From positions 1 to 7,262 of IMG/VR virus record IMGVR_UViG_3300009076_000004: DNA of 7,262 nt; one strand, 5' to 3'. Shown in pieces: positions 1 to 7,262 of this stretch; within the stretch, counting starts at the first letter, position 1, and the number at the start of each line of letters is the position of its first letter. A model generated the notes under the pieces. The model had not been told where the DNA came from. It saw nothing but the letters and a program-made list of their open reading frames with translations, and ran no database searches. The position numbers and the translations under genes are program-made. This DNA comes from a virus.

Positions 1-123
1 GCGTCGAAATGAAAACGCCAGCTCAACGCCAGGCCGAACGCCGTGCCCGCATCAAGGCCACCGACATGGCCGAGGTTCGCGGGATCTTTGCGCCACCCGA
101 GCAGCACGCCGCTATTCGCGCCC
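1..123. repeat. Left copy of the exact 123-bp terminal direct repeat (circular overlap or tandem-copy junction)
   Basis: gcgtcgaaatgaaaacgcc...gctattcgcgccc is identical base for base to 7140-7262. It holds the last 12 nt of the 32-aa ORF and the 5' part of the 57-aa ORF. Confidence 0.97.
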
Positions 124-182
124 AGGTGTTTCGCATGCAGGTTCTCGCCGCCAGGAACCCGCTCGACAAAACCTTTTCCTGA
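9..182 (+). CDS. 57-aa arginine-rich small protein, possible DNA-binding regulator (third gene of the post-zot cassette)
   Basis: ATG at 9, TGA at 180-182. Translation: MKTPAQRQAERRARIKATDMAEVRGIFAPPEQHAAIRAQVFRMQVLAARNPLDKTFS. In the second copy (7148) the ATG overlaps the upstream ORF stop as ATGA and follows AAGGG by 7 nt. It is under 60 aa, so absent from the ORF track. The competing frame 43-258 is Pro/Arg-rich junk with a GTG start. Confidence 0.6.
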   Translation: MKTPAQRQAERRARIKATDMAEVRGIFAPPEQHAAIRAQVFRMQVLAARNPLDKTFS

Positions 183-190
183 TCCGCCAA

Positions 191-294
191 GGGTCCAGGC
201 TTTCCTTCCTGGGGACAACACGGGGACCCGCCGCAACCCCCTTGTGGGGTGCCCGTAGGGCGGTGGGGCAGGGGTATGGGGCAGCAGGCCCCAT
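191..294 (+). other. G-run-rich, hairpin-dense non-coding block between convergent genes; candidate packaging signal, minus-strand origin or bidirectional terminator
   Basis: There are seven G3-4 runs (211-214, 222-225, 246-249, 258-260, 265-268, 271-274, 278-281). Stems seen: GGGTCC 191-196 with GGACCC 224-229; CCAGG 195-199 with CCTGG 208-212; bulged gcaacccc/ggggtgc at 233-252; ATGGGGC 276-282 with GCCCCAT 288-294 (5-nt loop). No convincing ORF. Confidence 0.5.
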
Positions 295-446
295 GTCAAC
301 CTATGACCGCCACTGGCCCCCACTTCAACGCCACATTCGGCACCCTCGCGCTGTGCTAGTCTCCAGTTTCGGTCACGTTACCACGTGTGAGAACAAGGTA
401 TTACTTTTGAGTGTTACCGCGGTTGTCATGTACTAATCCCAACTAG

Positions 447-881
447 TTACACGGGCAGGGTTGCTGTAATGCCTTTTGGTGGAAATAACTTTACACTTCT
501 ATACATCGTGGAACATGAAACCAGCCACTCCCATAGGGAGAACCCGGTTGACAGGCTAAAAAGTTGGGCCGCGTTTGCTCCACTTGAAACGACGGTGGCG
601 ATTGTCACTAGCGAAGCTTTTCCCAGCACCTCTAACAGGCGTTCACCTTTGGCCGTCCCTTCGTGTTTTGCGCACGTGGCACGAGCTAGCCACGCCGCCG
701 CGTCTAGGCCCGCGATCCCTGCAATTAGCGCCTGATCCTCGGGCGTGGCGGTGCGCTTTCCATGCCGCCACGCGCTCACGTGGCCCCGAGGTACCCCCAG
801 CATTTTTGCAAGCTGGTAATCGCTTCCGGCTATCGCCTTGGCTGCGTCGATCAATTCATTAAGGGTTTCTACGTGTTTCAT
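447..881 (-). CDS. HTH DNA-binding regulator (Cro/CI or YdaS-like), putative phage repressor in the rstR position, with a hydrophobic C-terminal region
   Basis: 144 aa. The N-terminus ...GSDYQLAKMLGVPRGHVSAWRHGKRTATPEDQALIAGIAG... is a classic helix-turn-helix. It is the only minus-strand gene and is divergent from rep. The C-terminal ASLVTIATVVSSGANAAQLFSLSTGFSLWEWLV is hydrophobic. Confidence 0.75.
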   Translation of the reverse strand: MKHVETLNELIDAAKAIAGSDYQLAKMLGVPRGHVSAWRHGKRTATPEDQALIAGIAGLDAAAWLARATCAKHEGTAKGERLLEVLGKASLVTIATVVSSGANAAQLFSLSTGFSLWEWLVSCSTMYRSVKLFPPKGITATLPV

Positions 882-1222
882 GCGTGTCCAAATCTGGTAA
901 AGTCCAAACCGTCACCAAAAGTGGTGATTAGTACTTGTAAGTATCCCAAAATGAATGTACGCCCTAGTCCAAGCAGTCACAACAGAAACCGTGCGTTTCT
1001 GGTAGGGGATTCCACCCCTTCCGCCAACAGTGTTGTAAGGCTTCACAACGCGTCCAACCACACCAGTTGGCTGCATATCTCTTTGTTCATCGAGAACATG
1101 CCAAAGCGCCAGGCGCAGCCTCTGGAGGGCGCAAGCCCGAGGGGCCCCGCTTGCGGGGATACGGGCGCGGCGCAAGCCACCCCCGTTGGTAATCACGGGG
1201 AGATCAATCCGGAGACTGCACA
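882..1222. promoter_or_regulatory. Divergent control region between repressor and rep; candidate operators (912-943) and candidate plus-strand origin (1106-1200)
   Basis: A 341-bp gap separates the divergent genes. The lower-GC left half holds the palindromes TCACCA-aaag-TGGTGA (912-927) and TACTT-gt-AAGTA (932-943). The GC-rich right half holds GCGCC-a-GGCGC (1106-1116) and GGCGCA(A)GCC at 1112, 1128 and 1169. It also holds hairpins at 1145-1158 and 1181-1200. I could not place specific -35/-10 boxes with confidence. Confidence 0.4.
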
Positions 1223-2428
1223 GTGACCCGAGCGAGGAAGTCCGATCTCGTGATTGATGGTCACGAAGTGGCCTTGCGTTTGAAGGCTGAACGCCTCTAT
1301 ACCCGGTCGGTCGTTCATGTGGATTGGGTGCGCTTCACCTGCCGCTTGAAAAACGCTCCTTTGCCCACGGCTGACGACCTTTTTCCGCTGCCAGGTCACA
1401 CCTGGTCAAGCTCCATGCTGGAACGCATCGCCAAGACGCTGCGCGAGTTGCCAGATCCTGATTTCGCCGTGAGTGTCCAGGCAAAGACGCTGGCCGATCA
1501 GGCATGCGAAGCCCTCGGTCCCGACTTCCACGTTTTCCCCGAGATCCGCAAGGGTCACGACTTTTACCGCTTCCGCTGGTCCATCGTTCGCAACGATGTT
1601 GAGTGCGGTTGGGTCGGCTTCCTCGCCAGCGGGGAAAGTCCTCGCCAGCAGGCCCAGGCCGAAACTATGCATTGCAACATCTACGGCACCGGCTGCACCT
1701 TCGCAAAGCCCGGTTTTAACCACCGCCTGGCCGAGCTGGTTCGGTCAACGTCTGCCGTCTTAACGCGTGTGGATCTCGCCCTTGATTTCTTCGATGGCCT
1801 GTCTGGTGGCATGGAACGCGTGCGCGAGGACTACATGAACGGCCTCATGGACAACCGGGGGCGTCGTCCTTCGTGCAACCAGGTGGGCGACTGGTGCAAC
1901 GGTCGTGCCCGCTCGTTCTACACCGGCAGCAAGGAAGCCGGAAAGCAGACCAACGTCTATGAAAAGGGTCACCAGTTGTTCGGCCCTCTCGACCCCTCCA
2001 AGTGGATGCGTGCCGAGGTCCGTTGGGGCAACAAGTTGCGCGTTCTCGATGCCAACGTGTTGAACTTTCCAACCGACTTTTTTGCAGGCGCAAGCGATTG
2101 GCACGCCTCACTCGTTCGTGAGGCTGATGCCCTTTGCAAGCCCGAAAAGATCAAGACCACGCCACGCCTGGCCGCGGAAACCATCCTGGCCGAGGTGTCA
2201 CGAAACATCCGCTGGATTCGCAACACTGCCGCGCCTTCGCTGGCTCTTGCGTTTCAGTACCTGGGCACTGATTCATTCATGGAATTGGTGGAGCACCAGA
2301 AGCTGCCGGGCCGCTTGCAAAAGTTCATTCCACGCGAAGTCGCAAGCGCCTACACCAACGCCTTCAAACGCCTTTCAGGCTCCGGGACTGGCCGTCTCGG
2401 ACTACAGCCTTACTCGGCCGCAACGTAA
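1223..2428 (+). CDS. Rolling-circle replication initiation protein, Rep_trans family (RstA / gene II functional equivalent)
   Basis: 401 aa. Motifs read by eye: VHVDWVRFTC near the N-terminus, TRVDLALDFFDG, and NVYEKG as a candidate catalytic Tyr, as in Rep_trans/RstA-type initiators. It is the first gene of the + strand operon. The start is GTG 1223, with GGAG at 1211-1214. GTG 1250 is an alternative, and the first in-frame ATG is about 64 codons in. Confidence 0.8.
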   Translation: MTRARKSDLVIDGHEVALRLKAERLYTRSVVHVDWVRFTCRLKNAPLPTADDLFPLPGHTWSSSMLERIAKTLRELPDPDFAVSVQAKTLADQACEALGPDFHVFPEIRKGHDFYRFRWSIVRNDVECGWVGFLASGESPRQQAQAETMHCNIYGTGCTFAKPGFNHRLAELVRSTSAVLTRVDLALDFFDGLSGGMERVREDYMNGLMDNRGRRPSCNQVGDWCNGRARSFYTGSKEAGKQTNVYEKGHQLFGPLDPSKWMRAEVRWGNKLRVLDANVLNFPTDFFAGASDWHASLVREADALCKPEKIKTTPRLAAETILAEVSRNIRWIRNTAAPSLALAFQYLGTDSFMELVEHQKLPGRLQKFIPREVASAYTNAFKRLSGSGTGRLGLQPYSAAT

Positions 2429-2443
2429 CAGGAAACCAAGATC

Positions 2444-2764
2444 ATGCGCATGAAAAACCAGGCCGTTCTGCACGGCATCAAATCCAGCAAGGGCGACTTT
2501 GAAGGCCGGGGTTATGACTCCACCACCTTCCACCTGGCGGTGGATATGGGCGAGTCCAGCAACGGCGAAAGCATCGGCACTGTCACCCGTCCATTCAAGT
2601 TCGGCAAGTCCGATGAGTTCCAGAAATGGGCGCACCTGAAATCGTCCTGGCCCCTCGGTGGCATCACGTGCGATTGCGAATTTGATGTTGTGGCCGGTTC
2701 GGACAACAGCACGAAGTTGACCCTCCTGGCCATCCAGCCTACCGCTGCCCGCAAGGCCGCTTGA
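2444..2764 (+). CDS. Putative ssDNA-binding protein (gene V / RstB position)
   Basis: 106 aa, immediately downstream of rep. AGGA lies 9 nt before the ATG. The size and position match inovirus ssDNA-binding proteins. I recognised no diagnostic motif. Confidence 0.5.
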   Translation: MRMKNQAVLHGIKSSKGDFEGRGYDSTTFHLAVDMGESSNGESIGTVTRPFKFGKSDEFQKWAHLKSSWPLGGITCDCEFDVVAGSDNSTKLTLLAIQPTAARKAA

Positions 2765-3372: not shown

Positions 3373-3588
3373 ATGAACAAAATCCGCAACTTTGGTGCTG
3401 CAACCCTCGCAACCCTCGCCGCTGCCGCAGCTCACGCCCAGGCCGTCAGCCCTCTGGAAACCATGCTTGACGAGGTGGACTTGACCGGCCTGTCGGTCAA
3501 GATCATCGCCGTTGGCCTGCTCGTGGTCGGCATTGCCCTGGCTTTCAAAGGCCCGGATCTGGCAAAGCGCGTGATCCGCAAGGTCTGA
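3373..3588 (+). CDS. Major coat protein (gene VIII equivalent) precursor
   Basis: 71 aa. The signal peptide MNKIRNFGAATLATLAAAAAHA ends in an AxA cleavage motif. The roughly 49-aa mature part has an acidic N-terminus (E, D, E, D), a hydrophobic core (VKIIAVGLLVVGIALAF) and a basic C-terminus (KRVIRKV). This is the canonical inovirus coat architecture. Confidence 0.9.
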   Translation: MNKIRNFGAATLATLAAAAAHAQAVSPLETMLDEVDLTGLSVKIIAVGLLVVGIALAFKGPDLAKRVIRKV

Positions 3589-3591
3589 GCC

Positions 3592-3696
3592 ATGTTGGTC
3601 GGTGCACTCATGGTTCTTTTCTGGATCCTCGTGGCCCTGCTTGGTGCCATGGGTGCACTCGTCTTTGTCATCGCCATCGGAAGGGCCAACACATGA
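3592..3696 (+). CDS. 34-aa hydrophobic peptide, possible minor coat protein (pVII/pIX-like)
   Basis: ATG 3592 lies 3 nt after the coat gene stop, and its TGA (3694-3696) overlaps the pIII-like ATG as ATGA. Translation: MLVGALMVLFWILVALLGAMGALVFVIAIGRANT, a single transmembrane helix. It is not in the ORF track. Confidence 0.55.
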   Translation: MLVGALMVLFWILVALLGAMGALVFVIAIGRANT

Positions 3697-5066
3697 GCCA
3701 CAATCGTTTTCTGGCTCTCGCGCTGGTCCTGCCCTTCGGCTTCGCGTTTGCGCAGTCTGTGGCCCCGTCCACGCCAGGCCCAACGGCTTTCCCAGTGTCC
3801 ACGGTGCGAAACATCAGCACCATTGGCCCAACGACGGTCAGTCCTGCCAATGTCGGTCGTTATGCCTTCGCTAATGCGATCGGTGGCAACGTGGTTGCCG
3901 ACGCTGCAACCGGACTCCCTCTTCCTGACGGTCGGACCTCGCCCGTCAATGTCACCTCCACCATTCCAAAAGCCTCCGTAGCGTCTGCCCTCGGTCGATT
4001 TGCGCGCAAGGCGTTGCCGATTCTTTCTACCGGCATTGCCCTTTACGACCTTGCCGAGGAGCTTGGCTATAAGGCGTCCACCACCGGTGGACCTGTTGTG
4101 TTTGAGAAGCAGGACATGAGCGTAGAGCCTTCTTCCGGCACTTACTATCGCGCGGCAAACGGTCCCTATGTCGGCAGTGCCTGGACGGCTCCCCAGGCTT
4201 GCAAAATCGCTATTGCCTCCGGCGGCGGTGTGTATACCGGCTACCTGCCAGCAGAGTCGCGCTGCACCGGCACCAAGGGTGGTTTTCCGTTCGGTGCCAA
4301 CGTCGGCCCTCATCCATCGGGCAATCCATACCCTTGTCCTGTTGGTCAGTTTTCCAACGGAACCTCTTGCTCCACCACTCGTCCCGTGGTGCCCTCCACG
4401 CCCGCACAGTTCGAAGCAGACATAGCCGCTAAAAGCGACTGGCAACCCTCTTCCGCTCTCGCACGAAGTCTCGTCGATGCCATCAAGGCCGGCGAGCTGG
4501 TGCAGGCTCAACCGCAGACCGTCACTGGCCCCGCTTCGACACCTGGTGCTTCCAGCACGACAACCGATGCGGTCAACGGCACCACGACCACCACGACCAA
4601 CACCTTCAACCACGTTTATGACGGTGCCAAGGTCACCACCACGCTGACCACCACCAACCTCACTATCAACACCAGCACCGGTGCTGTCGTCAGCAACACC
4701 ACCACCACGGCCAGCCCGGTGATGCCCGAGGCCGACCCCGACGATGAAGACGGAACACCAACCGATACCGCGCTGCCTGGTCAGCCGGATCTGTACGACC
4801 CCGAATATCCCGAGGGTTTGAAAGGTGTCTGGAACGCCAAGAAGGCTCAACTCCAGGACGTTCCCTTGCTTAACCTCCTGGGAGATCTCATGCCCACTGT
4901 CTCAGGCTCTGGCACGTGTCCGTCTTGGCCGTTGGACCTGGATCTCTATATCGTGGATTACGGCGTGCACCTGGTACAGGTTCCCTGCTGGATATGGGAT
5001 TTCGGCAAAGTCGTGATTATTTGCTCAGCATTGTTGCTGTCCCGTCGTCTAATTTTCGGGGGTTGA
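3693..5066 (+). CDS. Minor coat / host adsorption protein (gene III equivalent)
   Basis: 457 aa. It has a signal peptide MSHNRFLALALVLPFGFAFA-QS, Cys-containing N-terminal domains and a Thr-rich linker (nt 4548-4718). It also has an acidic stretch and a C-terminal hydrophobic anchor (VVIICSALLLSRRLIFGG). It is the largest structural gene, directly after the coat gene and before pVI/pI. GGAAGGG lies 7 nt upstream. Confidence 0.8.
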   Translation: MSHNRFLALALVLPFGFAFAQSVAPSTPGPTAFPVSTVRNISTIGPTTVSPANVGRYAFANAIGGNVVADAATGLPLPDGRTSPVNVTSTIPKASVASALGRFARKALPILSTGIALYDLAEELGYKASTTGGPVVFEKQDMSVEPSSGTYYRAANGPYVGSAWTAPQACKIAIASGGGVYTGYLPAESRCTGTKGGFPFGANVGPHPSGNPYPCPVGQFSNGTSCSTTRPVVPSTPAQFEADIAAKSDWQPSSALARSLVDAIKAGELVQAQPQTVTGPASTPGASSTTTDAVNGTTTTTTNTFNHVYDGAKVTTTLTTTNLTINTSTGAVVSNTTTTASPVMPEADPDDEDGTPTDTALPGQPDLYDPEYPEGLKGVWNAKKAQLQDVPLLNLLGDLMPTVSGSGTCPSWPLDLDLYIVDYGVHLVQVPCWIWDFGKVVIICSALLLSRRLIFGG

Positions 5067-5067
5067 A

Positions 5068-5400
5068 ATGGTCGCTGGTTTCACTCTGCTCTTAAAGAAG
5101 CTTGCCGACATTCTGAAATGGATTTCGGATCTGTTCATTGCTGTATTCGTCGCGCTTTTCGACCTGGTTAAAGATGGGTTCTCCTGGCTGTTTGAACAGA
5201 TGCTGGAGATCGTTATCGATGCCCTGGAAGGAATCGACGTATCCGGTATTTCTGCCGCTGGCGGTTGGGGCGATCTGCCCGCCGAGGTGTTGAACATCCT
5301 CGCGCTGTTGGGTGTCGCCCAGGCGGTGTCAATCATCATTGCATCCATCGGCATTCGCCTTGTGCTGCAAATCATTCCATTCGTTAGGCTCGGGTCATGA
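5068..5400 (+). CDS. Minor coat protein, gene VI equivalent
   Basis: 110 aa with several hydrophobic segments (ISDLFIAVFVALF, LNILALLGVAQAVSIIIASIGIRLVLQII). It lies between the pIII-like and Zot-like genes. Its stop overlaps the zot ATG as ATGA. Confidence 0.65.
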   Translation: MVAGFTLLLKKLADILKWISDLFIAVFVALFDLVKDGFSWLFEQMLEIVIDALEGIDVSGISAAGGWGDLPAEVLNILALLGVAQAVSIIIASIGIRLVLQIIPFVRLGS

Positions 5401-6731
5401 TCAACGGCATTGAAGGCATTCCAGGCTCGGGCAAATCCTATGAGGCTGTTGCATTTCACGTGCTTCCAGCATTGCAGGCCGGGCGCCTGGTCATTACGAA
5501 TCTGCCCCTCCTGGTCAAGATGCTCGTTGCCGTCAATCCCGGTTACGCCGATCTGATCGAACTCCGCACCAAGGCGCAGCCTGTGCTGGGCACCTGGGAT
5601 GCGTCCCGTTTGGATGAAGACGGCAACGGCGAGGCTTTCCAGTTGTTCCCCGATGGCTACGACTTCGCCAGGCATTTGGAAGTGCGCACCAAGGGGGAAG
5701 CCCTCCAGTTGTTCAGCGAGGGCCGTGTTTACGTGTTCCCGGCCACCGTAGCGCCCTTTTCCCAGGTGTGGGACTACTACACCACCTGGAAGCACCCCAA
5801 GACCGGCCAGGGTCCGCTTTTCATCATTGATGAGGTGCACGTCCCGCTCCCTCGCCAGAAGGCTGACGAACAGGTGCGCGAGTGGTTCTCGTTGCACCGT
5901 CACTTCAATGCCGACGTGCTGCTCATGTCTCAGCGCTTCCGCAAGATCCACCCGGATATTTCCGAGTTGTGCGCCATGCTGGTTCGCTGCCGCAAGGCCG
6001 ACATTCTTGGTCGTTCTGGCTCCTACATTCGCAAGGTCCATGCAGGCTATCCAGGCGCGGTGATCAGCACCGAGGAACGCAAGTACAAGCCCGAGATCTT
6101 CGGCCTCTACAAAAGCCACACACAAGGCAATTCTGTCGCGGAGGCGGGGGCCAGCGACGTTAAACCGCTCACCGTGCAATTCCGCCGCGTCACCTGGTTG
6201 GTGTGGCTCATTGCTGCCTCTTTCTGCGTGTACGCCTTCTGGCCCAAATCGAAACCCGAACCCAAGCCAGTTGACACCTCCTGGCTCAAGGATCTCCCGC
6301 CAGGTCCACCACGTGAAACCTTCGCACCTGGTGACATTCGCCCTGCAACCGTTTCACCATCTGCACCAGTTGCAAGTGCAAAGCCAATTGATTCCGGCGT
6401 GCCTGGTACGCCTGATCCCTTTGAAGGGAAAACCATTCACCTCACCGGGTGGATGAAATTCGGATCTCGCCAGGTCTATACCTTCACGATTGCTGACGCT
6501 GGGCGGCGCATCTTTGATTTGCAGTTGGCCGACCTGGCGCGCTCGGGCTATTCGTTTCAGCCCTTGGGTGAGTGCGCGGGTCTGCTGGTGTTCGATGGCA
6601 AGTCCAGGCCGGTGACGTGTGACGCTCCCGTGCTGGCCGTTGCATCGCCCTCTACGCCCATCGTTGTCTCTCAGACCACCGGGCGACGTTCTGACGATTC
6701 GATCAACCCTTCCAGGTCGCCCAACCTTTGA
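5397..6731 (+). CDS. Zot-like assembly ATPase (gene I equivalent)
   Basis: 444 aa. The Walker A motif sits at the extreme N-terminus (GIEGIPGSGKS) and the Walker B motif is LFIIDEVH. A central transmembrane helix (VTWLVWLIAASFCVYAFW) is followed by a Pro-rich linker and a C-terminal periplasmic domain. This is the typical pI/Zot topology. Confidence 0.9.
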   Translation: MINGIEGIPGSGKSYEAVAFHVLPALQAGRLVITNLPLLVKMLVAVNPGYADLIELRTKAQPVLGTWDASRLDEDGNGEAFQLFPDGYDFARHLEVRTKGEALQLFSEGRVYVFPATVAPFSQVWDYYTTWKHPKTGQGPLFIIDEVHVPLPRQKADEQVREWFSLHRHFNADVLLMSQRFRKIHPDISELCAMLVRCRKADILGRSGSYIRKVHAGYPGAVISTEERKYKPEIFGLYKSHTQGNSVAEAGASDVKPLTVQFRRVTWLVWLIAASFCVYAFWPKSKPEPKPVDTSWLKDLPPGPPRETFAPGDIRPATVSPSAPVASAKPIDSGVPGTPDPFEGKTIHLTGWMKFGSRQVYTFTIADAGRRIFDLQLADLARSGYSFQPLGECAGLLVFDGKSRPVTCDAPVLAVASPSTPIVVSQTTGRRSDDSINPSRSPNL

Positions 6732-6766
6732 CCCGCTGAACGGTAGCTATTAGCAGACCAAAGGTA

Positions 6767-6794
6767 TTGACGTGACGCGTCACGGTGATACAAT
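6767..6794 (+). promoter_or_regulatory. Near-consensus sigma70 promoter with extended -10 and an embedded palindromic operator
   Basis: TTGACG is at 6767-6772, followed by a 16-nt spacer, TG at 6786-6787 and TACAAT at 6789-6794. A perfect 14-bp palindrome CGTGACGCGTCACG (6771-6784) fills the spacer, and TCACgGTGA (6780-6788) overlaps it. AAGG lies 7 nt before ATG 6820. Confidence 0.65.
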
Positions 6795-6819
6795 AGAGGC
6801 ATCAACACAAGGTGCCCAC

Positions 6820-7056
6820 ATGACACAAATCGACCTCTTCGCTCCTGTTCTGCACACACTTCACCCGCCTCACTTCACTGGCAGGCCGGAGTGCATGCAT
6901 CATTGCCGTGCTGAGTTCACGTTTGATTGGCACGATTTCGGCGGTCCTATCGATGCCCCTATCACCATCGCTTGCGGCTCTGTCTCGACTGGTGAGCTTC
7001 GCGACGGTCGTATTCCTGCGTTTGATTTCGAGTTCCGTGCAGGGTGGTGCAAATGA
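6820..7056 (+). CDS. 78-aa hypothetical protein with Cys/His cluster (first gene of the post-zot cassette)
   Basis: ATG 6820 has an AAGG Shine-Dalgarno sequence. The track's GTG 6772 start lies inside the promoter and is therefore unlikely. Translation: MTQIDLFAPVLHTLHPPHFTGRPECMHHCRAEFTFDWHDFGGPIDAPITIACGSVSTGELRDGRIPAFDFEFRAGWCK. I recognised no family. Confidence 0.55.
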   Translation: MTQIDLFAPVLHTLHPPHFTGRPECMHHCRAEFTFDWHDFGGPIDAPITIACGSVSTGELRDGRIPAFDFEFRAGWCK

Positions 7057-7151
7057 GCGCGCTTGAGGTGTGCGGCTGGCTTGTTTGGACGTGGTTTTGG
7101 TCCTACACAATTTTTATGTTGCTTCGATCTGCTGCAAGGGCGTCGAAATGA
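7053..7151 (+). CDS. 32-aa Trp-rich single-pass membrane peptide (second gene of the cassette)
   Basis: ATG 7053 overlaps the upstream TGA as ATGA, and its own TGA (7149-7151) overlaps the next ATG as ATGA. Translation: MSALEVCGWLVWTWFWSYTIFMLLRSAARASK. It has a hydrophobic, aromatic core and a basic tail. It is not in the ORF track. Confidence 0.5.
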   Translation: MSALEVCGWLVWTWFWSYTIFMLLRSAARASK

Positions 7152-7262
7152 AAACGCCAGCTCAACGCCAGGCCGAACGCCGTGCCCGCATCAAGGCCAC
7201 CGACATGGCCGAGGTTCGCGGGATCTTTGCGCCACCCGAGCAGCACGCCGCTATTCGCGCCC
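7140..7262. repeat. Right copy of the exact 123-bp terminal direct repeat
   Basis: Identical to 1-123. Confidence 0.97.
7148..7262 (+). CDS. 5' part of the 57-aa arginine-rich protein (second, window-truncated copy of 9-182)
   Basis: Same sequence as 9-123, and the window ends before the stop. This copy shows the native upstream context: AAGGG Shine-Dalgarno and the ATGA overlap with the 32-aa ORF. Confidence 0.6.
   Translation, partial: MKTPAQRQAERRARIKATDMAEVRGIFAPPEQHAAIRA

What the first reader, a model, noticed from the sequence alone, without database searches (positions are those of the whole stretch)
6767..7262. Self-promoted three-gene cargo cassette downstream of zot, wrapping the circular junction (continues to 182)
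After the assembly gene, where CTXphi carries ctxAB, there is an independent strong promoter. It is followed by three small ORFs chained by ATGA overlaps: 78 aa with Cys/His (6820-7056), 32 aa Trp-rich membrane peptide (7053-7151) and 57 aa arginine-rich (7148->182). None looks like a core inovirus morphogenesis or replication gene. A small membrane peptide coupled to a small basic putative DNA-binding protein under an operator-bearing promoter suggests three options. These are a toxin-antitoxin or addiction module, a superinfection-exclusion module, or a second immunity switch. I cannot assign a family, so this is the best candidate for something undescribed here.
Basis: partly seen in the sequence, partly recalled or inferred. 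Interest (0 to 1): 0.8.

Follow-up and report, generated by a model that had tools for sequence, protein, structure and literature searches.

The report
Self-regulated accessory gene cassette in filamentous phage
The three small genes after the phage assembly gene are a real, self-promoted unit, and they are one example of a widespread, undescribed phage cassette in which a conserved promoter with a palindrome and a conserved tiny DNA-binding protein bracket very variable small cargo genes, much as anti-CRISPR operons are built.

Summary
The window is a complete circular inovirus genome of 7139 bp. Downstream of zot lies the best sigma-70 promoter in the window (TTGACG-16-TACAAT, 6767-6794). 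A perfect 14-bp palindrome, CGTGACGCGTCACG, sits in its spacer. Three ATGA-coupled ORFs follow: A (78 aa), M (32 aa) and B (57 aa).

The trio itself is not the conserved unit.
- M is a 95-nt insertion found only in this lineage.
- A occurs in four different inoviruses, at three different positions or orientations.
- B belongs to a large family with no Pfam domain and no functional name from any source (927 clusters at 50% identity). This family also occurs in tailed phages.

B is always the last gene of a cassette of 2-3 genes. A CGT(G/T)ACGCGT(A/C)ACG palindrome inside a promoter lies 214-834 nt upstream of B. That makes 25 hits in 24 kb upstream of B, against 6 in 239 kb elsewhere. The cargo genes between palindrome and B are almost all unrelated (37 proteins, 34 clusters) and match no known family.

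Best reading: this is an autorepressed accessory cassette built like an acr-aca operon, with B as the repressor that binds the palindrome. The cargo function is unknown; counter-defence or superinfection exclusion are the leading guesses. A toxin-antitoxin module or a second immunity switch is unlikely.

The parts
6731..6766 (+). Region upstream of the promoter, partly conserved between cassettes (CCGnTnAACGGTA... element). It includes the inverted repeat 6724-6737 / 6752-6765 that spans the zot stop codon.
   Evidence: The alignment of the window, L003 and L004 keeps blocks here. L014 and L075 show the same CCGACAA(A/G)CGGTAG motif. The function is unknown.
6767..6794 (+). Sigma-70-type promoter: -35 TTGACG (6767-6772), 16-nt spacer, extended -10 TGaTACAAT (6786-6794).
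   Evidence: It is the best promoter-like site in the window, with 10 of 12 matches and the TG. It is invariant or nearly so across three inoviruses whose synonymous sites are saturated.
6771..6784 (.). Operator: a perfect 14-bp palindrome, CGTGACGCGTCACG, filling the promoter spacer. It is the presumed binding site of a B dimer.
   Evidence: It is unique in the genome. The same palindrome or the CGTTACGCGTAACG variant lies inside a promoter upstream of 25 of the 26 B genes that have at least 300 nt of upstream sequence.
6801..6819 (+). Predicted 5' leader (transcription start near 6801), rich in C and A, with Shine-Dalgarno AAGGTG at 6809-6814.
   Evidence: Read from the sequence. The leader has no significant RNA structure (z = +0.62). 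It is conserved in L003 and L075.
6820..7056 (+). Cargo gene A: 78 aa, soluble, pI 5.8. It belongs to a family seen only in inoviruses and its function is unknown.
   Evidence: Homologues: L003 56% identical, L004/L005 38%, L075 about 29%. It is under purifying selection. It has no Pfam, PHROG or PADLOC hit. The AlphaFold2 model failed (pLDDT 38.5).
7053..7151 (+). Cargo gene M: 32 aa, Trp-rich, predicted single-pass membrane peptide (MSALEVCGWLVWTWFWSYTIFMLLRSAARASK). It lies on a 95-nt insertion bounded by AAATGA at both ends.
   Evidence: It is absent from L003, L004 and L075, where A and B overlap directly. Analogous but non-homologous membrane genes sit in the same middle position in L048/L060 and L073. 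No homologue was found, so it is the least certain gene.
7148..7262 (+). Regulator gene B, 5' part (57 aa in all, pI 11.5). It continues across the circular junction.
   Evidence: The family has 106 clusters in the 5.8-billion-protein set and 927 representative clusters at 50% identity. dN/dS is 0.13. The AlphaFold2 model has pLDDT 86.8 and shows helix, beta-hairpin, helix.
9..182 (+). Regulator gene B, the complete copy as it reads at the start of the window. Positions 1-123 duplicate 7140-7262.

Best explanation
The region is an autonomous, negatively autoregulated accessory-gene cassette inserted in the variable zone between zot and the repressor gene. Host sigma-70 RNA polymerase fires a near-consensus promoter. 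One mRNA starting near 6801 is translated into A, M and B through ATGA translational coupling.

B is a basic protein of 57 aa (helix, beta-hairpin, helix). It is inferred to dimerise and bind the 14-bp palindrome in the promoter spacer, which would block the polymerase. Expression would then be a burst followed by a throttled steady state. This is the same logic as in acr-aca operons.

The promoter, operator and leader on the 5' side and the B gene on the 3' side form a conserved frame, and unrelated small cargo genes are exchanged within it. In this phage the cargo is A, a cytoplasmic protein found only in inoviruses, plus M, a Trp-rich inner-membrane peptide acquired secondarily.

The cargo function is not known. 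I rank counter-defence or exclusion of competing phages as most likely.

Shown here: the anatomy, the conservation, the association between operator and B, and the diversity of the cargo. Inferred: that B binds the palindrome, that it represses, and what the cargo does.
For: 1. The promoter and palindrome are real and unique in the genome.
2. About 35 nt of promoter and operator are invariant across three inoviruses whose A and B genes have saturated synonymous sites.
3. B is a large family: 106 clusters, or 927 representatives at E <= 1e-3. It occurs in inoviruses and in tailed-phage contexts, namely next to integrase and lysis genes, next to tail and lysis genes, and between NinB and terminase.
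4. In 25 of the 26 B loci with at least 300 nt of upstream sequence, a CGT(G/T)ACGCGT(A/C)ACG palindrome (up to 2 mismatches) lies 214-834 nt upstream, between a -35 and a -10 element. That is 25 hits in 24 kb upstream against 6 in 239 kb elsewhere. At least three of those six head neighbouring operons.
5. The two halves of the palindrome change together (GTGAC/GTCAC against GTTAC/GTAAC), as expected for the site of a symmetric dimer. The G-type half-site goes with a KTP N-terminus in B: 6 of 6, against 1 of 19 for other N-termini (Fisher p = 4e-5, not corrected for relatedness).
6. B is always the last gene and is coupled by ATGA or GTGA, or is fused to the cargo.
7. The spacer is 16 nt, close to optimal, so the promoter should be strong by itself. 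This makes a repressor more likely than a MerR-type activator.
8. The cargo is highly variable: 37 proteins fall into 34 clusters, with a median length of 66 aa.
9. Weak remote hits point to DNA-binding regulators: phrog_536 'transcriptional regulator', and NCBIfam 'LexA regulated protein' and 'plasmid repression protein F'.
10. Published precedent for this architecture: Aca1, Aca2 and the ribbon-helix-helix protein Aca14 (PMC6765145, PMC13551039).
Against: - There is no direct evidence that B binds DNA or represses. B has no Pfam domain, no sequence match in the PDB and no significant fold match.
- The model is of a monomer only.
- No cargo protein matches a known anti-defence, exclusion or toxin family, so the biological role is open.
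- One B locus with ample upstream sequence (L054) shows no palindrome anywhere near B. A second (L061) has none upstream, only one about 700 nt downstream of the B start.
- L024 has the promoter and operator but no canonical B.
- No intrinsic terminator was found after B.
- The loci are related to each other, so the association statistics overstate independence.
Confidence: 0.7

Rival explanations
1. Type II toxin-antitoxin (addiction) module with the toxin gene first, as in higBA or mqsRA. A or the membrane peptide M would be the toxin. B would be a DNA-binding antitoxin that autoregulates the operon.
For: The genes are small, translationally coupled and sit under a palindrome-bearing promoter, with the DNA-binding protein last. 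Inoviruses often carry toxin-antitoxin modules (PMC6813254, PMC12328805). The tail of B after residue 45 or so is variable and could bind a partner. M resembles small hydrophobic toxins in size and composition.
Against: The same conserved B core of about 45 residues is paired with about 34 unrelated cargo families. Many B proteins are only 50-55 aa, with a generic Lys/Arg tail and no room for a partner-specific domain. No cargo protein matches a toxin family or a PADLOC model. The number of cargo genes varies from one to two, and their sizes range from 32 to 256 aa. M is absent from the three other A+B cassettes.
Confidence: 0.1
2. A second immunity or life-cycle switch of the inovirus. B would regulate phage replication or assembly genes, as RstR, RstC or Pf4r-type regulators do.
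For: The cassette lies next to the regulatory region, between zot and the repressor gene. B is basic and probably binds DNA.
Against: The palindrome is unique to the cassette promoter and absent from the intergenic region between the repressor and rep genes. The same B and operator occur in tailed phages at unrelated positions. Inoviruses with a different Rep family carry the cassette at other positions and in the other orientation.
Confidence: 0.05
3. The palindrome is bound by a host factor or another phage protein, not by B. B would have another role, such as a chaperone or co-factor of the cargo, or an RNA-binding translational regulator.
For: There is no biochemical evidence for B-DNA binding. 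B has no recognised DNA-binding domain. L024 carries the promoter and operator without a canonical B. The C/A-rich leader is conserved across cassettes and could be an RNA target.
Against: The operator and B co-occur tightly in otherwise unrelated genomes. Operator half-sites co-vary with the B N-terminus. The leader has no significant structure. Several members give weak profile hits to transcriptional regulators.
Confidence: 0.1
4. The region is non-coding (an origin, packaging signal or attP) and the ORFs are chance.
For: Filamentous phages have structured non-coding regions near this position. ORF32 has no homologue.
Against: A and B are under purifying selection. Their reading frames are intact in four and in more than 100 lineages respectively. 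The window has no Rfam match.
Confidence: 0.01

Closest known systems
acr-aca operons (anti-CRISPR genes plus an anti-CRISPR-associated autorepressor such as Aca1, Aca2 or the ribbon-helix-helix protein Aca14)
   Same: A strong promoter with an inverted-repeat operator. One to a few very small, highly variable genes with no known domains come first. A small conserved regulator is the last gene. The unit is found in unrelated mobile elements at variable positions. The regulator sometimes has a second operator in front of a neighbouring operon (L073/L074; compare PMC13551039). Regulator-cargo fusions exist (P0005).
   Different: B matches no known Aca in the libraries I could search: it has no HTH or RHH Pfam hit and no sequence hit in the PDB. 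I could not obtain the sequences of Aca families that lack a solved structure, including Aca14. Its model is helix, beta-hairpin, helix. The operator is a GC-rich 14-mer in the spacer, whereas the Aca14 repeat is AT-rich and overlaps the -10 element. None of the cargo proteins tested matched a known family in Pfam, PHROGs or PADLOC, and anti-CRISPR activity is untested. No dedicated anti-CRISPR database was available.
Phage morons (autonomous transcription units inserted between core genes, as described for lambdoid phages; my own knowledge)
   Same: It has its own promoter. It is inserted between core modules and is present or absent, and differently placed, among related phages. Its GC content is slightly lower (A 55%, M insert 52%, genome 58%).
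   Different: Classical morons do not share a common dedicated regulator and operator. No terminator was detected after B.
ctxAB in CTXphi
   Same: Accessory cargo downstream of zot in a filamentous phage, with its own promoter.
   Different: There is no homology. ctxAB is controlled by host regulators (my own knowledge), whereas this cassette carries its own regulator. The products here are tiny and not secreted: A has no signal peptide.
PfsE of Pf4 (a 30-aa inner-membrane peptide whose aromatic YAWGW motif binds PilC and blocks type IV pili; PMC8764522)
   Same: M is encoded by an inovirus, is 32 aa long, is predicted to span the membrane once and has a cluster of aromatic residues (GWLVWTWFWSY).
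   Different: There is no sequence homology and no YxWGW motif. pfsE lies in the Pf core region, not in a regulated cassette. M is found only in this lineage. This is an analogy only.
Small regulators with a basic helix followed by a ribbon-helix-helix: CopB/RepA2 of IncFII plasmids and YbfE, the 'LexA regulated protein' (sequence resemblance recalled from my own knowledge)
   Same: An N-terminal basic helix is followed by a short strand and an amphipathic helix (…AERQ..R.RKA…EVRGIFAP..H..IK…). One of 106 members hits NCBIfam PRK11675 at 4e-4, and two hit UrfF, 'plasmid repression protein F', at 7e-4.
   Different: B lacks the second helix of the ribbon-helix-helix fold. The model shows a beta-hairpin rather than a single ribbon strand. 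None of the 106 members hits an RHH Pfam model.

Membership tests
acr-aca operon | The terminal gene belongs to a described Aca family (Aca1-14) or carries an HTH or RHH domain. | tested here: not met
   None of 106 B-family members hits an HTH or RHH Pfam model. The profile search of the PDB, which holds Aca1 and Aca2 structures, gave no hit at E <= 10. The Aca14 sequence could not be obtained.
acr-aca operon | An inverted-repeat operator lies in the operon's own promoter. | tested here: met
   A 14-bp palindrome sits between the -35 and -10 elements. It is conserved upstream of 25 of the 26 B genes with at least 300 nt of upstream sequence.
acr-aca operon | The upstream genes are validated or recognisable anti-CRISPR or anti-defence genes. 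| tested here: inconclusive
   Cargo proteins gave no PHROG, Pfam or PADLOC hits. No anti-CRISPR or AntiDefenseFinder library was available.
acr-aca operon | The regulator represses its own promoter. | not testable with these tools
   This needs an EMSA or a reporter assay.
Type II toxin-antitoxin module | The toxin belongs to a recognisable toxin superfamily. | tested here: not met
   A, M and ten other cargo proteins have no Pfam or PADLOC hit.
Type II toxin-antitoxin module | The toxin and antitoxin form a cognate, co-evolving pair. | tested here: not met
   One B family goes with 34 unrelated cargo clusters among 37 proteins.
Type II toxin-antitoxin module | The toxin arrests growth and the antitoxin relieves it. 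| not testable with these tools
   This needs expression experiments.
Ribbon-helix-helix (CopG/Arc/MetJ) superfamily | Strand, helix, helix topology detectable by profile or by fold. | tested here: inconclusive
   The model is helix(4-17), hairpin(21-28), helix(30-49), without a second C-terminal helix. There is no RHH Pfam hit and no significant Foldseek hit. NCBIfam hits are weak and involve 1-2 of 106 members.
PfsE-type superinfection-exclusion peptide | A membrane peptide of about 30 aa with a conserved YxWGW motif that binds PilC. | tested here: not met
   M has an aromatic cluster but no YxWGW motif and no sequence similarity (motif from PMC8764522). Binding cannot be tested here.
Moron | An autonomous promoter-to-terminator unit that is variably present or placed among related phages. 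| tested here: inconclusive
   The promoter and the variable position and orientation in four inoviruses meet the definition. No intrinsic terminator was found after B. The GC shift is only modest.

The most novel reading that the evidence does not exclude
The B family, together with the CGT(G/T)ACGCGT(A/C)ACG operator, is a previously unrecognised class of Aca-like anti-defence regulator that is not HTH. It marks hundreds of cassettes of unknown small proteins in uncultivated phages; the few host clues point to Betaproteobacteria (a Propionivibrio MAG, and Tct transporter genes flanking the L003 prophage). The cassettes are exchanged between filamentous and tailed phages. In this phage, A would be a new inovirus-specific inhibitor of a host defence or of a competing phage, working with or without the membrane peptide M. 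B could then serve as a guilt-by-association anchor for discovering many new counter-defence or exclusion proteins.
Probability: 0.35. Interest if true: 0.75.

Novelty: new variant of a known kind. Interest (0 to 1): 0.6.

Why it matters
If B is the autorepressor of these cassettes, then a 14-bp DNA motif and a protein signature of about 45 residues (…AERQ..R.R…EVRGIFAP..H..IK…) become a cheap search handle for hundreds of cassettes. These cassettes hold very small, fast-swapping phage genes that match no family in Pfam, PHROGs, NCBIfam or PADLOC. This is the class of genes that has yielded anti-CRISPRs and other counter-defence proteins when anchored on Aca regulators.

It would also show that filamentous phages and tailed phages draw on the same pool of regulated accessory cassettes. 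Finally, it would add a DNA-binding scaffold outside the HTH class, and possibly outside the canonical ribbon-helix-helix class, to the set of regulators that control such genes.

For this phage, it identifies A, and perhaps M, as the only non-core genes. They are therefore the likeliest determinants of how the phage interacts with its host or with competing phages.

Tried and rejected
- DNA similarity to cultured phages, for the whole genome and for the cassette: no match.
- B against INPHARED phages and PLSDB plasmids by tblastn: no match, apart from one chance hit at E = 7.
- Pfam, PHROGs, NCBIfam and PADLOC for A, M and B: nothing significant.
- Structure of A: the AlphaFold2 model from a two-sequence alignment had pLDDT 38.5 and was unusable, so no fold search was run on it.
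- Fold search with the B model: no significant match in the PDB or BFVD. The best was an unnamed 56-aa viral protein at E = 0.03.
- Exact-pattern scan of 185,579 species genomes for the promoter plus operator 19-mer: three hits, all inside unrelated coding sequence without A or B, so chance. The single IMG/VR hit (L009) is also chance.
- Metagenome scan with the 18-mer: 33 hits. Only L014, L024, L028, L040 and L045 have promoter architecture; the rest are chance hits in GC-rich coding DNA.
- More A homologues in IMG/VR, searched with three different A sequences: none beyond one spurious 21-residue match.
- Metal-binding idea for A: rejected, because its Cys and His residues are not conserved.
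- Structured RNA in the leader: not supported (z = +0.62). The window has no Rfam family.
- Literature search for the operator sequence or the EVRGIF motif: only coincidental primer matches.
- The Aca14 sequence could not be retrieved for a direct comparison.
Full report
**1. What is in the window**

The window has a 123-nt terminal direct repeat (1-123 = 7140-7262). It is therefore a complete circular genome of 7139 bp. The gene content is that of an inovirus:
- a divergent HTH repressor (447-881, minus strand; phrog_638, 8.5e-17)
- a Rep_trans initiator (1223-2428)
- an ssDNA-binding-like protein (2444-2764)
- a coat protein (3373-3588)
- a pIII-like protein (3693-5066)
- a pVI-like protein (5068-5400)
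- Zot/pI (5397-6731)

The same phage was assembled at 99.97-100% identity from four other samples (L002, L006-L008). It has no DNA match among 50,697 GenBank phage records. Its Zot is only 31-33% identical to the nearest cultured inoviruses.

**2. Check of the observation**

- The promoter is TTGACG (6767-6772), 16 nt, then TACAAT (6789-6794) with an upstream TG. It is the best sigma-70-like site in the window, with 10 of 12 matches. Only two sites were found in all, against 2.1 expected by chance.
- The spacer holds a perfect 14-bp palindrome, CGTGACGCGTCACG (6771-6784). It occurs nowhere else in the genome.
- A Shine-Dalgarno sequence (AAGGTG, 6809-6814) precedes ORF78, here called A (6820-7056).
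- ORF32, here called M (7053-7151), and ORF57, here called B (7148 across the junction to 182), follow with ATGA overlaps.

**3. Are the ORFs genes?**

A has homologues in three other inoviruses: L003 (56% identity), L004/L005 (38%) and L075 (about 29%). Between the window and L003, synonymous sites are saturated (pS 0.82) while pN is 0.29. For B, dN/dS is 0.13. Both are therefore protein-coding genes under purifying selection.

M is different. In L003, L004 and L075 the stop codon of A overlaps the start codon of B directly (…GCAAATGAAGACG…). The window has 95 extra nucleotides, bounded on both sides by AAATGA, and these encode M exactly from one ATGA to the next.

M is a 32-aa Trp-rich peptide with one predicted membrane span and a basic tail. 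No homologue was found. Its status as a gene rests on three points:
- the preserved translational coupling
- its composition
- non-homologous membrane proteins occupying the same middle position in two unrelated cassettes, L048/L060 (60 aa) and L073/L074 (75 aa)

**4. The conserved unit is a frame, not the trio**

Aligning the promoter regions of the window, L003 and L004 shows about 35 consecutive positions (GTTGACGTGACGCGTCACGGTG.TA.AATAGAGGC) that are invariant or nearly so. This holds even though synonymous sites in the adjacent genes are saturated. The non-coding DNA is thus under stronger constraint than the proteins.

B is a member of a large family:
- 106 clusters in the 5.8-billion-protein collection. 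None has a Pfam domain, and those that a source names are almost all called 'hypothetical protein'.
- 927 clusters at 50% identity with E <= 1e-3, of which 310 have E <= 1e-10, in the exhaustive profile search.
- A consensus of MTAKTnAERQaa.RaRKA….EVRGIFAP..dHaaIKa.AaKLa.

Genomic contexts show B in inoviruses (the window, L003, L004/5, L075). It also occurs in tailed-phage or prophage contigs:
- next to integrase and lysis genes (L046)
- next to lysis and tail genes (L047)
- between NinB/DUF3310 genes and terminase (L048-L050)

Twenty-one further loci came from IMG/VR.

In every locus B is the last gene of a run of two or three genes, and it usually overlaps the preceding gene by ATGA or GTGA. 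In some loci it is fused to the cargo (P0005 in L028, and L052).

**5. The operator goes with B**

In 25 of the 26 B loci with at least 300 nt of upstream sequence, a palindrome matching CGT(G/T)ACGCGT(A/C)ACG with up to 2 mismatches lies 214-834 nt upstream of B. It always sits between a -35 element (usually TTGACG) and a -10 element (TATAGT, TATGAT or TACAAT), with a spacer of about 16 nt. A C/A-rich leader ending in GGAG follows.

Over all loci there are 25 hits in the 24 kb upstream of B and 6 in the remaining 239 kb. At least three of those six sit in front of the next operon (L061, L068, L073).

The commonest form is CGTTACGCGTAACG. The window carries CGTGACGCGTCACG. The two halves change together, as expected for a site read by a symmetric dimer.

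The G-type half-site occurs with all six B proteins whose N-terminus reads KTP, and with only 1 of 19 others (Fisher p = 4e-5, not corrected for relatedness).

The near-optimal 16-nt spacer argues that the promoter is strong by itself. A protein bound in the spacer would therefore repress rather than activate.

B is very basic (pI 11.5). Its AlphaFold2 model, built on 106 sequences with mean pLDDT 86.8, is a helix (4-17), a beta-hairpin (21-28) and a helix (30-49).

B has no Pfam domain, no sequence relative in the PDB and no significant fold match. The only hints are weak profile hits in a few members:
- phrog_536, 'transcriptional regulator'
- NCBIfam 'LexA regulated protein', PRK11675
- NCBIfam 'plasmid repression protein F'

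These fit a resemblance I recalled to basic-helix-plus-ribbon regulators such as CopB and YbfE. They do not establish membership.

**6. The cargo**

Thirty-seven cargo proteins from about 27 cassettes fall into 34 clusters. The only multi-member cluster is the A family of the four inoviruses. The median length is 66 aa.

None of the proteins tested matched Pfam, PHROGs (apart from one family of unknown function) or PADLOC.

The cassette sits at different places in the four inoviruses that carry A:
- after zot on the same strand (the window, L003)
- after zot but convergent with it (L004/5)
- between pVI and zot (L075)

These phages also use two different Rep families. The cassette is therefore mobile. 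Cargo is presumably exchanged by recombination between the conserved 5' frame (promoter, operator, leader) and the conserved 3' frame (B); this last step is inference.

**7. Mechanism proposed**

Host RNA polymerase transcribes A-M-B from about 6801, and coupled translation yields all three products. B then accumulates, binds the palindrome as a dimer and shuts down its own promoter. The result would be an early burst followed by a low, buffered level.

This is the logic established for acr-aca operons (PMC6765145). It was recently extended to a ribbon-helix-helix regulator, Aca14, which also controls neighbouring operons (PMC13551039). L073/L074 show a comparable second operator.

What A and M do is unknown. 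A is cytoplasmic and restricted to inoviruses. M is a Trp-rich membrane peptide. In size and aromatic cluster it recalls PfsE of Pf4, which blocks type IV pili through PilC (PMC8764522), but it lacks the YxWGW motif and any homology.

My ranking for the cargo function:

| Cargo function | Estimated probability |
|---|---|
| Counter-defence | about 0.35 |
| Superinfection exclusion or surface modulation | about 0.3 |
| Toxin-antitoxin | about 0.1 |
| Other | the remainder |

**8. Rivals**

- Toxin-antitoxin. This is disfavoured because one short regulator is paired with dozens of unrelated partners, and no partner looks like a toxin.
- A second immunity switch. This is disfavoured because the operator is confined to the cassette, and the same regulator and operator occur in tailed phages.
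- A host factor binds the palindrome and B does something else. This cannot be excluded without biochemistry. L024 carries the promoter and operator without a canonical B. L054 has B without a detectable palindrome, and L061 has a palindrome only downstream of B.
- A non-coding origin or attP. This is refuted for A and B by selection and conservation.

**9. Novelty and verdict**

The architecture is of a known kind: an autoregulated accessory or anti-defence operon with a terminal regulator. The following appear to be undescribed:
- the regulator family
- its operator
- the breadth of cassettes they mark
- their sharing between filamentous and tailed phages

There is no family annotation, no match in cultured phages or plasmids, and no literature hit for the motif.

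I rate this a new variant of a known kind, with interest 0.6. Its interpretation is partly supported.

Noticed in passing
window 1-123 and 7140-7262: A 123-nt terminal redundancy shows the window is a complete circular genome of 7139 bp. The same phage recurs at 99.97-100% identity in four assemblies from other samples (L002, L006-L008).
   Followed up: yes
window 762-1226 (+) versus 447-881 (-): Gene callers in three public assemblies called a 154-aa plus-strand ORF that overlaps the repressor gene antisense, and they did not call the 144-aa HTH repressor. The repressor has strong PHROG support (phrog_638, 8.5e-17), so the 154-aa ORF is probably a miscall. The same callers also missed ORF78 and ORF32.
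   Followed up: partly
window 183-446: A GC-rich intergenic region (60% GC) lies between B and the repressor gene. It has several short GC hairpins and only moderate excess structure as ssDNA (z = -1.8). It is a candidate attP, minus-strand origin or packaging signal and remains unexplained.
   Followed up: partly
window 3592-3696: A 34-aa fully hydrophobic ORF (MLVGALMVLFWILVALLGAMGALVFVIAIGRANT) lies between the coat gene and the pIII-like gene and overlaps the pIII-like start by ATGA. It is probably a minor coat protein (g7/g9-like) or a PfsE-like peptide.
   Followed up: no
window 882-1222: The intergenic region between the repressor and rep genes contains a different inverted repeat (TCACCAAAAGTGGTGA, near 912-927). 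This is probably the operator of the HTH repressor and is unrelated to the cassette palindrome.
   Followed up: no
L073 364 and 1215 (also L074 330 and 1181): This locus has two copies of the operator. One heads the cassette (58-aa acidic protein, 75-aa membrane protein, B). The other heads the next operon (a 92-aa protein and a DUF7227 protein). B may therefore co-regulate neighbouring operons, as reported for Aca proteins.
   Followed up: partly
L024 1-2725: An integrase-bearing element carries the same promoter and operator (about 2614-2631, minus strand), followed by ORFs of 44, 147 and 133 aa. It has no canonical B. The 133-aa protein contains a basic stretch like the B N-terminus (MTAQTPAQRKAAERQRHK).
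   Followed up: no
L003 10487-10950: Downstream of the cassette in this prophage, a segment of about 100 nt occurs twice (around 10497-10601 and 10806-10919). A transposase fragment follows. Tct transporter genes flank the prophage on the other side. The repeats may be attachment or REP-like sequences.
   Followed up: no
L009 1-200: A giant-virus MAG contig (AT-rich) begins with about 200 nt of GC-rich sequence that contains the palindrome by chance. It looks like a chimeric assembly end.
   Followed up: no
L003, L004/L005 and L075 versus the window: Inoviruses that carry the A+B cassette use two unrelated replication initiators: Rep_trans (PF02486) in the window and REP_ORF2-G2P (PF23343) in L003 and L004. 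The cassette therefore moves between distinct inovirus backbones.
   Followed up: partly
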